A stretch of DNA of 64,000 bases. Source: Escherichia coli. GTDB taxonomy: Bacteria > Pseudomonadota > Gammaproteobacteria > Enterobacterales > Enterobacteriaceae. Made by a program: the position numbers. This document shows positions 58,901 to 64,000 of the stretch, one piece after another. Position 1 is the first letter of the stretch. The number at the start of each line of letters is the position of its first letter. The stretch lies in NCBI RefSeq assembly GCF_016026235.1, contig NZ_CP065613.1. One strand, 5' to 3'.

Positions 58901-61900
58901 ATAACCGGCATGAATAAAATCTTCCGCCGCGCGGATCGACAGGTTATCCATCATCTCCAGCCCGCCGGGGATAATGCCATTGGCGATGATGTCACCAACC
59001 GCAAGTCCGGCTTTTTCTACCGAGTCAAAGCTTGCTAACAGAACCCGCGCCACGGGCGGCTTCGGCAGCAGTTTTACCGTCACTTCGGTGGTCACGCCGA
59101 GCATACCTTCCGATCCGGTGAACAACGCCAGCAGGTCAAAACCAGGCGAATCCAGCGCATCCGATCCCAGCGTCAGTGCCTCGCCATCCAGCGTTTGCAC
59201 TTCAATTTTCAGCAGGTTATGTACGGTCAGACCATATTTCAGGCAGTGGACGCCGCCGGCATTTTCTGCCACGTTGCCGCCAATGGAACAGGCGATTTGT
59301 GAGGAAGGGTCCGGTGCGTAGTAGAGATTATGCGGTGCAACGGCCTGGGAGATCGCCAGGTTACGCACGCCTGGCTGCACGCGCGCGCGGCGACCAACGG
59401 GGTTAATGTCGAGGATCTTTTTAAAGCGCGCCATCACCAACAACACACCTTTTTCCAGCGGCAGCGCGCCACCAGAAAGCCCGGTGCCTGCACCACGGGT
59501 CACCACCGGTACACGCAGGCGATGGCAGACAGCCAGAATCGCTGTCACCTGTTCCATTTGCTTAGGCAGAACAACCAGTAATGGACGCGTGCGATACGCG
59601 CTCAACCCGTCACACTCGTAAGGAATGATCTCCTCATCGGTATGCAGGATCTCAAGTCCAGGGACATGCTCACGCAGTGCCATCAGTACCGATGTGCGGT
59701 CGACATCGGGTAAAGCGCCATCAAGACGCTCTTCGTACAAGATGCTCATGAGTAGGCTTCGCTTTGTTATGTTGTGTGGCAGCTGATTTTTGCGCGCTGC
59801 TTCTGTGAACAGTTATTAAGCGGGCTTTTCGTTTTCGTCTATCTCTTTAGCTACCGGTCAGACCATTTTTTTTCCAGCTCTGTGACCTTGTCTTGGTTAA
59901 GTTAATGTTAAATTTATGTAACATAATCACTTGCGTGATGTGCGTGTTTTGCGAGTTAAGAACAGAAAAATTGGTCCTACCTGTGCACGAGGTCTGGGAA
60001 TGAAAGATGAACGTCGCCCTATTTGCGAAGTGGTTGCAGAGAGTATCGAACGGTTAATTATCGACGGCGTACTGAAGGTCGGTCAGCCGCTTCCCTCGGA
60101 ACGTCGACTGTGTGAAAAGCTCGGCTTCTCACGCTCCGCACTGCGTGAAGGGCTGACCGTGCTGCGCGGGCGCGGGATTATTGAAACGGCGCAGGGTCGC
60201 GATTCTCGTGTCGCACGGCTTAATCGGGTGCAGGACACCAGCCCGCTAATTCATCTGTTCAGCACGCAGCCGCGAACGCTGTACGATCTGCTTGATGTTC
60301 GCGCATTGCTGGAGGGCGAATCGGCAAGGCTGGCGGCAACGCTGGGAACGCAGGCTGATTTTGTTGTGATAACCCGCTGTTATGAAAAAATGCTCGCCGC
60401 CAGTGAGAACAACAAAGAGATTTCGCTGATCGAACATGCGCAGTTGGATCACGCTTTCCATCTCGCCATTTGTCAGGCTTCTCACAATCAGGTGCTGGTG
60501 TTTACGCTGCAATCATTGACCGATCTGATGTTTAATTCAGTGTTTGCCAGCGTAAATAATCTCTACCATCGACCACAGCAAAAAAAGCAGATCGATCGCC
60601 AGCATGCGCGGATCTACAACGCGGTGTTGCAGCGGCTGCCGCACGTCGCCCAGCGCGCAGCACGCGATCATGTGCGGACCGTGAAAAAGAATCTCCACGA
60701 TATCGAGCTGGAAGGCCACCATTTGATTCGCTCGGCGGTGCCGCTGGAGATGAACCAGAGTTAGCTGGTATTAAATTTGCTTTTCATACAATCGGTAACG
60801 CTTGTACGGCTCCGCCCCAATGCGTTCCAGCATGTTATTCATGCCTGTATTGGTTTCGAGGATCCATGACATCTCCAGCGCATCGATCTTCCGGCGGGCA
60901 AACGGATCGCGTAAGGCTTCAATCAATAACAGCGCAATCACCGGGCCGATGCGGCTGAACTGATACTCGTCGCGCACGCCCATCAGCGGTACTCGCGCAG
61001 TTCGCACACCGCTGACTTTCAAACGCCACAGCAATTTTGCCCAGCCGAAGGGAAAGAGCGATCCGTTCAGATCGGCAATCGCCTCGTTGATGTTCGGCAA
61101 GCCGACAATAAACGCGCAGGGTGCAGAATCAATCTCAGCGATATAGATCATATCGTCCGGCACCAGATATTTAAGTTGATCGCCCATGGTCGCGAATTCA
61201 TGTTCGGTAAACGGCACAAATCCCCAGTTGTGCTGCCAGCCAGAGTTGAAAATCTCACGCAGGATCTGCATTTCTTCGGCAAACCGCTGACGATTGATGC
61301 AGCGAATGGTCACCTTTTTGCGCACCTGATCCATCAGTTTTTTTAGCGCCGGAGAGAAAGTGAGATCGGTTCGCTGCATCCACCACGCCAGTAAATCAAT
61401 GCCTTTGTGATAACCCAGTTGTTCAATATGCGCGGCATACCACGGTTTGCCGTGTGGCATCATCGCACAGGGTGGTGTGTCAAAACCTTCAATCAGTAAT
61501 CCGCTTTCCTGATTGATATTCAGGCTGAAAGGACCGCTGATCTTACTTGCACCTTGTGACTTCAACCACGCTTCCGCTGCGCCAAACAACGCGGCAAAAA
61601 CCTGCGGATCATCAATGGCGTCAATCATGCCGAAATGACCGGTATCTTCACCGTAACGCTCACGGTGCAAGGTATCTATTTGCGCGGTAATACGCCCAAC
61701 TATCTGCCCCGCTTTTTTTGCCACCCACGCCTGCCAGATGATATGGTCCGTCCCCGGATTTTTCGCAGACAAATGCTCGTTGCGTTCAATGAATAAAGGG
61801 GGTATCCAGTTTGGATCGTCGGGATAAAGTAATGACGGAAAAGCGATAAATGCCTTAAGGTCATTTTTATTAATTACTTTTTCAATTTTAATCATCAGCA

Positions 61901-64000
61901 GATCGCATTCCATAGTTCTGTGGGTAACAAATAATTAACGGTGACAAACAGGTTGCAACAGCAACGAATGGCACCTTAATAATCAACCCAATGAATACAA
62001 ACGACGAATAAATAGTATTTATTAATGATTACGATAAGGTCAAAGACTACACAGAAGCGCCACAATGCCTTTTGTCGATTTAAGGCGACCGGACAAGGCT
62101 TCTTCTTAATATATTCATAAATTAAATATCATTCACAATAAAAACAAAAAACTTAAACTCATTATTTAAATCAATGTTCATTTTCACACCGATGAAAATA
62201 CTATCTCATTTATCTTTTATGCCTATATAATCCACCGCATTATTGTCATTTTATTTTTGATATCCAATTTTTTCGTGGTGTATATGTCTAATAAAATCTT
62301 TACGCATTCCCTACCTATGCGCTATGCCGATTTTCCAACGCTGGTTGATGCTTTGGACTACGCCGCTCTGAGTAGCGCCGGAATGAATTTTTATGACAGA
62401 CGTTGCCAACTTGAAGATCAACTGGAATATCAGACGTTAAAAACGCGTGCCGAAGCTGGTGCGAAGCGGTTGTTATCGCTGAACCTGAAAAAAGGCGAAC
62501 GCGTGGCGCTGATTGCCGAAACGAGTAGCGGGTTCGTAGAGGCTTTTTTTGCCTGTCAGTATGCTGGCTTAGTCGCCGTCCCGTTGGCGATTCCAATGGG
62601 CGTCGGTCAGCGGGATTCCTGGAGCGCCAAACTCCAGGGTTTACTGGCAAGTTGCCAGCCCGCAGCCATTATCACTGGTGATGAGTGGTTGCCACTGGTC
62701 AATGCCGCGACGCATAACAACCCCGAATTACATGTTTTAAGCCACGCCTGGTTTAAGGCATTACCGGAAGCCGATGTTGCGCTCCAGCGTCCAGTTCCGA
62801 ACGATATCGCCTACCTCCAGTACACCTCCGGCAGCACCCGTTTTCCCCGTGGCGTCATTATCACCCATCGCGAAGTGATGGCTAATCTACGTGCTATAAG
62901 CCACGATGGCATTAAATTACGCCCTGGCGACCGCTGCGTCTCCTGGCTGCCTTTCTACCATGATATGGGACTGGTCGGCTTTCTCCTGACCCCCGTCGCC
63001 ACGCAACTTTCAGTAGATTATTTGCGCACTCAGGATTTTGCCATGCGTCCTTTGCAATGGCTTAAATTGATCAGTAAAAATCGCGGCACCATTTCCGTTG
63101 CGCCGCCGTTTGGCTATGAATTGTGCCAGCGCCGCGTGAATGAAAAAGATCTCGCTGAACTGGATCTTTCCTGCTGGCGCGTCGCTGGTATTGGTGCAGA
63201 ACCCATCTCCGCAGAACAACTCCATCAATTCGCTGAATGTTTCCGTCAGGTTAACTTTGACAATAAAACTTTCATGCCGTGCTACGGACTGGCAGAAAAT
63301 GCGCTGGCTGTCAGCTTCTCTGATGAAGCCTCCGGGGTTGTGGTTAACGAAGTGGATCGCGACATCCTCGAATATCAGGGTAAAGCCGTCGCGCCGGGTG
63401 CAGAGACACGCGCCGTATCGACTTTCGTCAACTGCGGCAAAGCGTTGCCGGAACATGGTATTGAAATCCGCAATGAAGCAGGTATGCCGGTCGCGGAACG
63501 TGTGGTAGGCCATATTTGCATCTCCGGTCCCAGTCTGATGAGCGGTTACTTTGGCGACCAGGCTTCGCAAGACGAGATTGCCGCGACGGGCTGGTTAGAC
63601 ACCGGCGACCTCGGTTATCTGCTGGACGGTTATCTGTATGTCACCGGACGCATTAAAGATCTGATTATTATTCGTGGCCGTAATATCTGGCCGCAGGATA
63701 TTGAATATATTGCGGAACAGGAACCGGAAATTCATTCTGGCGATGCGATTGCTTTTGTTACCGCCCAGGAAAAAATCATTTTGCAGATCCAGTGTCGGAT
63801 CAGCGATGAAGAACGTCGCGGACAGCTTATCCACGCGCTGGCAGCACGGATCCAAAGCGAATTTGGCGTAACAGCGGCTATCGATCTGTTGCCGCCCCAC
63901 AGCATTCCCCGAACGTCCTCCGGCAAGCCTGCCCGTGCGGAAGCGAAAAAACGTTATCAGAAGGCTTATGCTGCAAGCCTTCATGTGCAGGAATCCCTGG

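What the first reader, a model, noticed from the sequence alone, without database searches (positions are those of the whole stretch)
60771..64000. Intact yghO followed by a fatty-acyl-AMP-ligase-like gene
yghO is uninterrupted here (pseudogenised in K-12 as I recall), and immediately downstream a gene with a clear adenylation motif (YTSGSTRFPRGVIITH) begins and runs off the window. K-12 lacks such a gene at this position to my knowledge, so the window may clip the start of a small acyl-activation or lipid-modification cluster.
Basis: partly seen in the sequence, partly recalled or inferred. Interest (0 to 1): 0.35.

Follow-up and report, generated by a model that had tools for sequence, protein, structure and literature searches.

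The report
E. coli ceramide (sphingolipid) synthesis gene cluster
The window ends at the start of a published gene cluster, present in most E. coli but deleted from K-12, that can make the sphingolipid precursor ceramide, so the finding is real but not new.

Summary
yghO (60771-61913, minus strand) is intact. A fatty acyl-AMP ligase gene (62317 to 64005, plus strand) carries the quoted motif and leaves the window only 5 nt before its end. It is transcribed divergently from yghO, not downstream of it.

In near-identical genomes the ligase is followed by an SDR reductase, an acyl carrier protein and serine palmitoyltransferase. Padilla-Gomez et al. 2022 (PMC9386255) name these genes in E. coli BL21(DE3):
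- aca/yghO
- aasR
- epi
- acpR
- spt

They showed that AasR, AcpR and SPT together make 3-oxo-sphinganine. The ligase is also EcFAAL, crystal structure 3PBK (about 98.8% identical).

K-12 lost 8.4 kb here, from the first 13 codons of yghO into yghQ, at an IS5 element. O157 Sakai lacks the whole region. About 75% of complete E. coli genomes keep it, under purifying selection.

YghO models as a tandem GNAT acyltransferase, and its homologues sit next to spt or lptF/G paralogues across phyla.

Still unknown: whether E. coli makes a sphingolipid natively, and what the linked yghQRST, lptF2G2 and ytfJ-like genes do.

Verdict: already known, low interest.

The parts
60771..61913 (-). yghO (aca / bCerS homologue): predicted tandem-GNAT N-acyltransferase, the candidate ceramide synthase. 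The true start is probably Met7 at 61895.
   Evidence: Intact 380-aa ORF. No Pfam or NCBIfam hit. AlphaFold2 model has pLDDT 96.1 and matches tandem GNAT structures at Foldseek E 1e-14 to 1e-16. The paper equates yghO/ECD_02850 with Caulobacter CC_1154: 44% identity, E 1e-107. It differs from the BL21(DE3) protein at 2 of 380 residues. Homologues are 374 aa. 68 of 80 homologue loci have spt, FAAL or lptF/G partners within 10 kb.
61914..62316 (.). Divergent intergenic region between yghO and the ligase operon: AT-rich (31% GC), presumed to hold both promoters.
   Evidence: Sequence and GC content. Sigma-70-like matches are no more frequent than in shuffled sequence. No Rfam match and no repeats. 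K-12 lacks this region.
62317..64000 (+). Fatty acyl-AMP ligase (EcFAAL = AasR, the specialised acyl-ACP synthetase). The gene ends at 64005, 5 nt beyond the window. An alternative in-frame ATG lies at 62284.
   Evidence: Translation contains the quoted motif. NCBIfam PRK09192 fatty acyl-AMP ligase 868.6 bits, cut-off 600. PDB 3PBK 1266 bits, 7 differences in 562 residues. 24% identity to FadD, with about 17 extra residues in the 336-378 region. Published biochemistry in PMC8460268 and PMC9386255.

Best explanation
The 3' end of the window holds the first two genes of the E. coli dihydroceramide (sphingolipid) biosynthesis cluster.

Proposed pathway:
1. The ligase (EcFAAL/AasR) adenylates a C12-C16 fatty acid. 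It transfers it to the phosphopantetheine arm of a dedicated acyl carrier protein (AcpR) rather than to CoA.
2. Serine palmitoyltransferase (Spt) condenses acyl-AcpR with L-serine to give 3-oxo-sphinganine.
3. YghO, a tandem-GNAT N-acyltransferase homologous to Caulobacter bCerS/Aca (CC_1154), adds the second acyl chain.
4. The SDR encoded between the ligase and AcpR, homologous to Caulobacter CerR/Epi (CC_1164), reduces the 3-keto group. The order of steps 3 and 4 is disputed in Caulobacter.

What is shown and what is inferred:
- The ligase-to-ACP transfer and the three-protein synthesis of 3-oxo-sphinganine are shown experimentally for the E. coli proteins by heterologous overexpression.
- The roles of YghO and the SDR are inferred from homology, fold and gene context.
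- The convergent genes beyond the window probably modify and export the lipid to the outer membrane. These are lptG/lptF paralogues, a periplasmic YtfJ-like protein, a 274-aa orphan, the MOP flippase YghQ and the P-loop proteins YghR/S/T. This rests on conserved synteny and on the analogous LptF2/G2 and flippase genes of the Caulobacter cluster. It is untested.

K-12 lost the core of the cluster through an IS5-associated 8.4-kb deletion.
For: Gene order downstream of the window:
- The closest genome matches the window at 99.94% over 13.5 kb, and BL21(DE3) has the same order: yghO <> FAAL-SDR-ACP-spt, then lptG-lptF-ytfJ-like-hyp-yghQ-yghR-yghS, then yghT.
- Proteins are 96.4-100% identical to those of BL21(DE3).

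Family assignments:
- FAAL 868.6 bits against a cut-off of 600.
- Spt equivalog NF047599 599.9 bits against a cut-off of 500.
- PP-binding ACP, Epimerase/SDR and LptF_LptG domains for the other genes.

Ligase:
- It is PDB 3PBK. EcFAAL loads lauric acid onto its cognate holo-ACP (PMC8460268).

Published work on the cluster (PMC9386255):
- The paper names aca = yghO ECD_02850, aasR = ECD_02851, epi = ECD_02852, acpR = ECD_02853 and spt = ECD_02854.
- Co-expression of AasR_Ec, AcpR_Ec and SPT_Ec gives 3-oxo-sphinganine, and SPT_Ec prefers acyl-AcpR.
- Table S2 reports CC_1154 vs ECD_02850 at 44% identity, E 1e-107, and CC_1164 vs ECD_02852 at 34% identity, E 7e-38.

YghO:
- The model has pLDDT 96 and a tandem GNAT fold.
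- Of 80 YghO-homologue loci from many phyla, 44 have spt or FAAL, 45 have lptF/G paralogues, and 68 have at least one partner within 10 kb.

Module conservation and selection:
- The whole module recurs in Serratia and Pluralibacter in different chromosomal contexts.
- dN/dS is 0.02-0.19 for all 12 genes that differ, similar to glcC and glcD.
- The SDR-ACP-spt block is present in 4077 of 5426 complete E. coli genomes.
- The Caulobacter cluster likewise contains LptF2/G2/C2 and a putative flippase (PMC11324152).
Against: - No native sphingolipid has been reported for E. coli in the papers I could search.
- In PMC9386255, BL21(DE3) carrying empty vectors, or over-expressing SPT alone, gave no 3-oxo-sphinganine spot although it carries the chromosomal cluster. 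The cluster is therefore silent or very weakly expressed under those conditions.
- The N-acyltransferase activity of YghO and the reductase activity of the SDR have not been assayed for the E. coli proteins.
- The E. coli SDR has no signal peptide, with its Rossmann motif at residues 8-14. Caulobacter CerR is reported to be periplasmic.
- E. coli has no homologues of the Caulobacter head-group enzymes in the cluster, for example the DAGK-type ceramide kinase CpgB, so the final product cannot be inferred.
- Everything after position 64000 is taken from other genomes, not from the window.
Confidence: 0.88

Rival explanations
1. The genes are an evolutionary relic in E. coli. They are biochemically competent when over-expressed, but they are never expressed and have no current role, so the locus is decaying, as its loss in K-12 and O157 suggests.
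For: BL21(DE3) shows no detectable 3-oxo-sphinganine without over-expression. The locus has been lost independently by IS5 deletion in the K-12 lineage (351 genomes) and by island replacement in O157 Sakai. The promoter region is AT-rich (31% GC), a composition typical of silenced loci (my inference).
Against: dN/dS is 0.02-0.19 in every gene that differs, as low as in the neighbouring glc genes. The block is retained in about 75% of complete genomes. The module is conserved at about 80% protein identity across Enterobacterales genera. Most K-12-type junctions are in laboratory derivatives.
Confidence: 0.2
2. The cluster makes a different alpha-oxoamine-derived lipid or signal rather than a ceramide. 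Examples would be a free or N-acylated amino-ketone, or a sulfonolipid- or autoinducer-like molecule.
For: Spt belongs to the alpha-oxoamine synthase family, which also contains BioF, Kbl and CqsA. All of these give lower but significant scores. The final product in E. coli has never been identified. The accessory genes (YghR/S/T, the 274-aa orphan, YtfJ-like) do not correspond to the Caulobacter head-group enzymes.
Against: Spt passes the serine palmitoyltransferase equivalog cut-off (599.9 vs 500), while BioF, Kbl and CqsA-type models all fall below theirs. SPT_Ec made 3-oxo-sphinganine from labelled serine in vitro and in vivo. All five dihydroceramide genes defined genetically in Caulobacter have homologues in one cluster here.
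Confidence: 0.08
3. The ligase is an ordinary FadD-like acyl-CoA synthetase paralogue used in fatty-acid degradation.
For: It shares the ANL adenylation motifs and the Pfam AMP-binding domain with FadD.
Against: It is 24% identical to FadD and has about 17 extra residues where the FAAL-specific insertion lies. It scores 101 bits against the FadD model (cut-off 884) and 869 bits against the FAAL model (cut-off 600). It is about 98.8% identical to the EcFAAL crystal structure 3PBK. EcFAAL is used in PMC8460268 as a representative of enzymes that reject CoA and load ACP. AasR acylates AcpR but not CoA in the Caulobacter system.
Confidence: 0.01

Closest known systems
E. coli BL21(DE3) sphingolipid genes ECD_02850-02854 (aca/yghO, aasR, epi, acpR, spt), Padilla-Gomez et al. 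2022, PMC9386255
   Same: Same locus between glcC and pitB, with the same gene order and orientation. Proteins are 96.4-100% identical; AcpR is identical, and YghO differs at 2 of 380 residues.
   Different: Only allelic differences. The window is cut 5 nt before the end of aasR, so epi, acpR and spt are not on it.
EcFAAL, crystal structure PDB 3PBK
   Same: The same protein: 1266 bits, 7 substitutions in 562 aligned residues. It was co-crystallised with lauroyl- and myristoyl-adenylate and loads its cognate ACP in vitro.
   Different: None of substance. The FAAL papers I read do not mention the sphingolipid context.
Caulobacter crescentus ceramide cluster CC_1152-CC_1168 (spt, acpR, aasR, cerR/epi, bcerS/aca, lptF2/G2/C2, flippase, cpgABC)
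   Same: It contains the same five dihydroceramide genes, with published identities of 44% (Aca) and 34% (Epi). It also has a second LptF/LptG pair and a putative flippase in the same neighbourhood.
   Different: E. coli has no LptC2 and no CpgA/B/C-type head-group enzymes. It has instead a YtfJ-like periplasmic protein, a 274-aa orphan and three thymidylate-kinase-like P-loop paralogues, YghR/S/T. Native lipid production is shown in Caulobacter and not in E. coli.
E. coli FadD (long-chain acyl-CoA synthetase)
   Same: Same ANL superfamily fold and the same adenylation half-reaction.
   Different: 24% identity, a FAAL-type insertion, and ACP rather than CoA as the acceptor.

Membership tests
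Fatty acyl-AMP ligase (FAAL) | ANL adenylation domain that passes a curated FAAL model rather than an acyl-CoA ligase model | tested here: met
   NF006624 fatty acyl-AMP ligase 868.6 bits (cut-off 600). FadD equivalog 101 bits (cut-off 884). Pfam AMP-binding E 7e-58.
Fatty acyl-AMP ligase (FAAL) | FAAL-specific insertion in the N-terminal domain relative to acyl-CoA ligases | tested here: met
   The BLASTP alignment to FadD shows about 17 unmatched residues in FAAL 336-378. The protein is about 98.8% identical to 3PBK, in which the insertion is described.
Fatty acyl-AMP ligase (FAAL) | Transfers the acyl-adenylate to holo-ACP and rejects CoA | not testable with these tools
   Published for the near-identical EcFAAL/EcACP pair (PMC8460268). 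AasR_Ec with AcpR_Ec supports 3-oxo-sphinganine formation (PMC9386255).
Bacterial ceramide synthase (bCerS / Aca, CC_1154 family) | Full-length sequence homology to the genetically defined Caulobacter enzyme | tested here: inconclusive
   I did not hold the CC_1154 sequence. The published comparison is 44% identity, 98% coverage, E 1e-107 for ECD_02850, and the window protein differs from ECD_02850 at 2 residues. My own search found 6447 representative clusters of full-length homologues.
Bacterial ceramide synthase (bCerS / Aca, CC_1154 family) | Acyl-CoA N-acyltransferase (GNAT) fold | tested here: met
   AlphaFold2 model pLDDT 96.1, pTM 0.92. Best PDB matches are tandem GNAT proteins 2wpw, 5kf1, 7q3a and MshD, at E 1e-12 to 1e-16.
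Bacterial ceramide synthase (bCerS / Aca, CC_1154 family) | Genomic association with spt and the other sphingolipid genes | tested here: met
   Spt or FAAL lies within 10 kb in 44 of 80 homologue loci, lptF/G paralogues in 45, and any partner in 68. Four of the 12 loci without a partner are short contigs.
Bacterial ceramide synthase (bCerS / Aca, CC_1154 family) | N-acylation of the long-chain base | not testable with these tools
   I found no assay of the E. coli protein in the papers I read.
Rhodobacteria-type serine palmitoyltransferase system (Spt + AcpR + AasR) | spt preceded by a dedicated ACP gene, with an acyl-ACP synthetase gene nearby | tested here: met
   In L001 and BL21(DE3) the order is FAAL-SDR-ACP-spt. 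The ACP stop overlaps the spt start. Spt equivalog 599.9 bits (cut-off 500) and PP-binding E 1e-13. These genes lie beyond the window end.
Bacterial ceramide reductase (CerR / Epi, CC_1164 family) | NAD(P)-dependent extended SDR homologous to CC_1164 and encoded in the cluster | tested here: inconclusive
   Pfam Epimerase E 3.7e-23 with a Rossmann motif at residues 8-14. Published 34% identity to CC_1164. There is no signal peptide, although Caulobacter CerR is reported as periplasmic. Activity was not assayed.

The most novel reading that the evidence does not exclude
The 13 genes from yghO to yghT form one conserved Enterobacterales module. Under some natural condition it builds and exports to the outer membrane a sphingolipid whose head group differs from every characterised bacterial one.

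In this reading, modification uses the three P-loop paralogues YghR/S/T and the 274-aa orphan in place of the Caulobacter CpgABC enzymes. Export uses YghQ, LptF2/G2 and the periplasmic YtfJ-like protein. Most wild E. coli would then be conditional sphingolipid producers, a trait hidden because K-12 deleted the genes.
Probability: 0.3. Interest if true: 0.6.

Novelty: already known. Interest (0 to 1): 0.15.

Why it matters
E. coli is usually said to make no sphingolipids, largely because K-12 carries an IS5-linked deletion of the pathway. About three quarters of complete E. coli genomes keep all five dihydroceramide genes plus a linked transport and modification set, under purifying selection. 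This is published for BL21(DE3), so the finding adds no new biology.

Two points may still be useful. The structural-biology model enzyme EcFAAL (3PBK) and the sphingolipid enzyme AasR are the same gene product, which the FAAL papers I read do not state. The K-12 label 'putative DNA-binding transcriptional regulator YghO' is contradicted by a confident tandem-GNAT model. The real open question is whether, when and as what lipid the pathway operates in wild E. coli.

Tried and rejected
- Pfam and NCBIfam on YghO and the 274-aa orphan, even at E up to 10, gave nothing useful.
- A PDB sequence search with YghO found only chance hits.
- I tested whether YghR/S/T are relatives of the Caulobacter ceramide kinase CpgB. 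They are not: CpgB is a DAG-kinase/LCB5-type enzyme, and YghR/S/T are thymidylate-kinase-like P-loop proteins.
An 8-sequence alignment worked, but its 80 best loci did not include Caulobacter. The YghO-CC_1154 link therefore rests on the published table.
- The promoter scan of the divergent intergenic region found no more sites than shuffled sequence. There is no Rfam family and no repeat there.
- The cluster GC (0.46-0.53) is ordinary for E. coli, so composition gives no sign of recent horizontal transfer.
- A homologue search for the 274-aa orphan returned only 'hypothetical protein' names.
- Literature searches for native E. coli sphingolipids, or for yghQ together with sphingolipid, found nothing.
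- The idea that the ligase is a FadD paralogue was rejected.
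Full report
**What is in the sequence**

The window is E. coli chromosome. Positions 50451-64000 match strain FDAARGOS_943 with 8 mismatches in 13,550 bases.

At 60771-61913 on the minus strand there is an uninterrupted 380-aa ORF annotated YghO in that record. It ends 6 nt from the stop of glcC, which lies on the other strand.

A 403-bp intergenic region of 31% GC follows. On the plus strand an ORF then begins at 62317, the annotated start. An in-frame ATG at 62284 is preceded by GGTG.

In the matching record the gene ends at the equivalent of 64005, so the window lacks only its last codon and stop.
- The two genes are divergent rather than tandem.
- The ligase is nearly complete in the window.

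**What the ligase is**

- It scores 868.6 bits against the NCBIfam fatty acyl-AMP ligase model (cut-off 600). It scores only 101 bits against the FadD model (cut-off 884).
- It is 24% identical to K-12 FadD. About 17 residues around positions 336-378 are unmatched, which is where the FAAL-specific insertion lies.
- It matches PDB entry 3PBK, 'Fatty Acyl-Adenylate Ligase', at 1266 bits with 7 substitutions in 562 residues.
- That protein, EcFAAL, was co-crystallised with lauroyl- and myristoyl-adenylate (PMC11837247). It transfers lauric acid to its cognate holo-ACP (PMC8460268).

**What lies beyond the window**

In FDAARGOS_943 and in BL21(DE3) the ligase is followed by these genes:
- a 304-aa NAD-dependent epimerase/dehydratase-type SDR, whose start overlaps the ligase stop
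- an 82-aa acyl carrier protein
- a 390-aa serine palmitoyltransferase that passes its equivalog cut-off (599.9 vs 500)

Convergent to these are:
- lptG and lptF paralogues
- a YtfJ-family protein with a signal peptide
- a 274-aa protein with no family
- the MOP-flippase-like YghQ (449 aa)
- the P-loop proteins YghR and YghS

yghT and pitB follow.

**This cluster is published**

Padilla-Gomez et al. 2022 (PMC9386255) list, for E. coli BL21(DE3), aca = yghO ECD_02850, aasR = ECD_02851, epi = ECD_02852, acpR = ECD_02853 and spt = ECD_02854. They state that the five dihydroceramide genes are clustered together only in C. crescentus and E. coli BL21.

Their experiments showed the following:
- AcpR_Ec carries phosphopantetheine.
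- AasR_Ec, AcpR_Ec and SPT_Ec together give 3-oxo-sphinganine in vivo.
- SPT_Ec prefers acyl-AcpR to palmitoyl-CoA in vitro.

Their Table S2 gives 44% identity (E 1e-107) between Caulobacter CC_1154 and ECD_02850. It gives 34% identity (E 7e-38) between CC_1164 and ECD_02852.

The proteins of the window's lineage are 96.4-100% identical to those of BL21(DE3). The window's YghO differs at 2 of 380 residues and its ligase at 10 of 561.

**Independent checks on YghO**

YghO has no Pfam, NCBIfam or PDB sequence match. It does have a large family of full-length homologues: 6447 representative clusters at E <= 1e-3.

An AlphaFold2 model built on 54 of them has pLDDT 96.1. Its best solved-structure matches are tandem GNAT acyltransferases (2wpw, 5kf1, 7q3a, MshD) at E 1e-12 to 1e-16. 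This fits an N-acyltransferase. It does not fit the K-12 label 'putative DNA-binding transcriptional regulator'.

I examined 80 homologue loci from Enterobacterales, Pseudomonas, Nitrosomonas, Nitrospira, Gemmatimonadetes, delta-proteobacteria and Rhodobacteraceae. Within 10 kb:
- 44 carry spt or the ligase.
- 45 carry an lptF/lptG paralogue pair or member.
- 68 carry at least one partner.
- Four of the 12 without a partner are short contigs.

In Serratia liquefaciens and Pluralibacter gergoviae the module recurs in different chromosomal surroundings.

K-12 homology to the window stops at 61873, 40 nt inside the 5' end of yghO. IS5 (insH9) follows, and homology resumes inside yghQ.

K-12 therefore lacks 8,384 bp, comprising:
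- the first 13 codons and the promoter of yghO
- the ligase, SDR, ACP and spt genes
- lptG2 and lptF2
- the ytfJ-like gene and the orphan
- the last 94 or so codons of yghQ

The K-12 junction occurs in 351 of 5426 complete genomes, and those listed are K-12-type or laboratory strains.

O157:H7 Sakai has the pheV island SpLE3 running straight into a truncated pitB, so it has no yghO-yghQ interval at this locus.

The SDR-ACP-spt block is at least 80% covered in 4077 of 5426 genomes. Between the window's lineage and BL21(DE3), dN/dS is 0.02-0.19 in every gene of the module that differs, like glcC and glcD. GC content is ordinary. The intact state is thus the norm and K-12 the exception.

**How it most likely works**

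Shown for the E. coli proteins by others:
1. The ligase adenylates a C12-C16 fatty acid and loads AcpR.
2. Spt condenses acyl-AcpR with serine to give 3-oxo-sphinganine.

Inferred from homology, fold and synteny:
3. YghO adds the amide-linked acyl chain.
4. The SDR reduces the 3-keto group. The order of steps 3 and 4 is disputed in Caulobacter.

More speculative: YghQ, LptF2/G2 and the periplasmic YtfJ-like protein move the lipid to the outer membrane, and YghR/S/T and the orphan modify it. This rests on synteny and on the parallel presence of LptF2/G2/C2 and a flippase in the Caulobacter cluster. YghR/S/T are not related to the Caulobacter ceramide kinase, which is a DAG-kinase-type enzyme.

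**What remains open**

I found no report of a native E. coli sphingolipid. BL21(DE3) with empty vectors or with SPT alone made no detectable 3-oxo-sphinganine. The chromosomal cluster therefore appears silent under laboratory conditions.

The FAAL papers I read do not mention sphingolipids. No paper in the searchable library combined 'fatty acyl-AMP ligase' with serine palmitoyltransferase and sphingolipid in E. coli. The identity of EcFAAL with AasR seems not to be widely noted.

**Verdict**

The feature is an already described, partly characterised cluster. Novelty: already known. Interest: low.

Noticed in passing
window 61895-61913: YghO is annotated as 380 aa, but homologues in other Enterobacterales are almost all 374 aa and cover 98% of the query. 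The real start is probably the second Met (MIKIEK..., window 61895).
   Followed up: partly
window 62284-62316: There is an in-frame ATG 33 nt upstream of the annotated ligase start, preceded by GGTG. The annotated start has no Shine-Dalgarno-like sequence. Homologues are 568-584 aa, and the 3PBK chain has 13 extra N-terminal residues, so the start is uncertain.
   Followed up: partly
L002 11044-12216 (K-12 yghO, b2981): K-12 RefSeq annotates the IS5-truncated yghO as a 390-aa 'putative DNA-binding transcriptional regulator' whose start lies inside IS5. The intact protein models confidently as a tandem GNAT acyltransferase, so the product name looks wrong.
   Followed up: yes
L004 22167-46852 (O157:H7 Sakai): In Sakai the pheV-linked island SpLE3 abuts a truncated pitB pseudogene. 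Homology to the reference locus resumes only inside pitB, so the interval that carries the glc operon and the yghO-yghT module in the window is absent there.
   Followed up: partly
L001 1-10839 vs window 40000-50450: The closest genome (FDAARGOS_943) has Mu-like prophage genes (tail, baseplate, com, mom) upstream of glcA, where the window carries sslE and type II secretion genes. The window strain is therefore not that strain.
   Followed up: partly
L001 29154-29978: The 274-aa protein between the ytfJ-like gene and yghQ has no family in Pfam or NCBIfam. It has about 343 homologues, those listed being mostly Enterobacterales and all 'hypothetical'. Copies at about 50% identity lie about 10 kb from yghO homologues in Luteibacter and Dyella.
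   Followed up: partly
L001 31373-33742: YghR, YghS and YghT are three thymidylate-kinase-like P-loop proteins, apparently paralogous, that travel with the module in several genera (Serratia, Erwinia, Rosenbergiella, Cedecea, Mangrovibacter). RefSeq names two of them 'dTMP kinase', which is unlikely to be their function.
   Followed up: partly
L028-L033, L086 (Nitrosomonas loci): In Nitrosomonas the yghO homologue sits 1-2 kb from an lptF/lptG paralogue pair, while spt is not within 10 kb. This links the acyltransferase to the Lpt-like permeases independently of spt.
   Followed up: partly
L009 and L017 (Shimwellia pseudoproteus): This genome has two yghO paralogues (84% and 74% identical to the E. 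coli protein). One is in the full cluster and one has no cluster genes within 10 kb.
   Followed up: no
literature (PMC8460268, PMC11837247 vs PMC9386255): The structural model enzyme EcFAAL (3PBK) and the sphingolipid enzyme AasR_Ec are the same gene product. The two FAAL papers read never mention sphingolipid, ceramide or serine palmitoyltransferase.
   Followed up: yes
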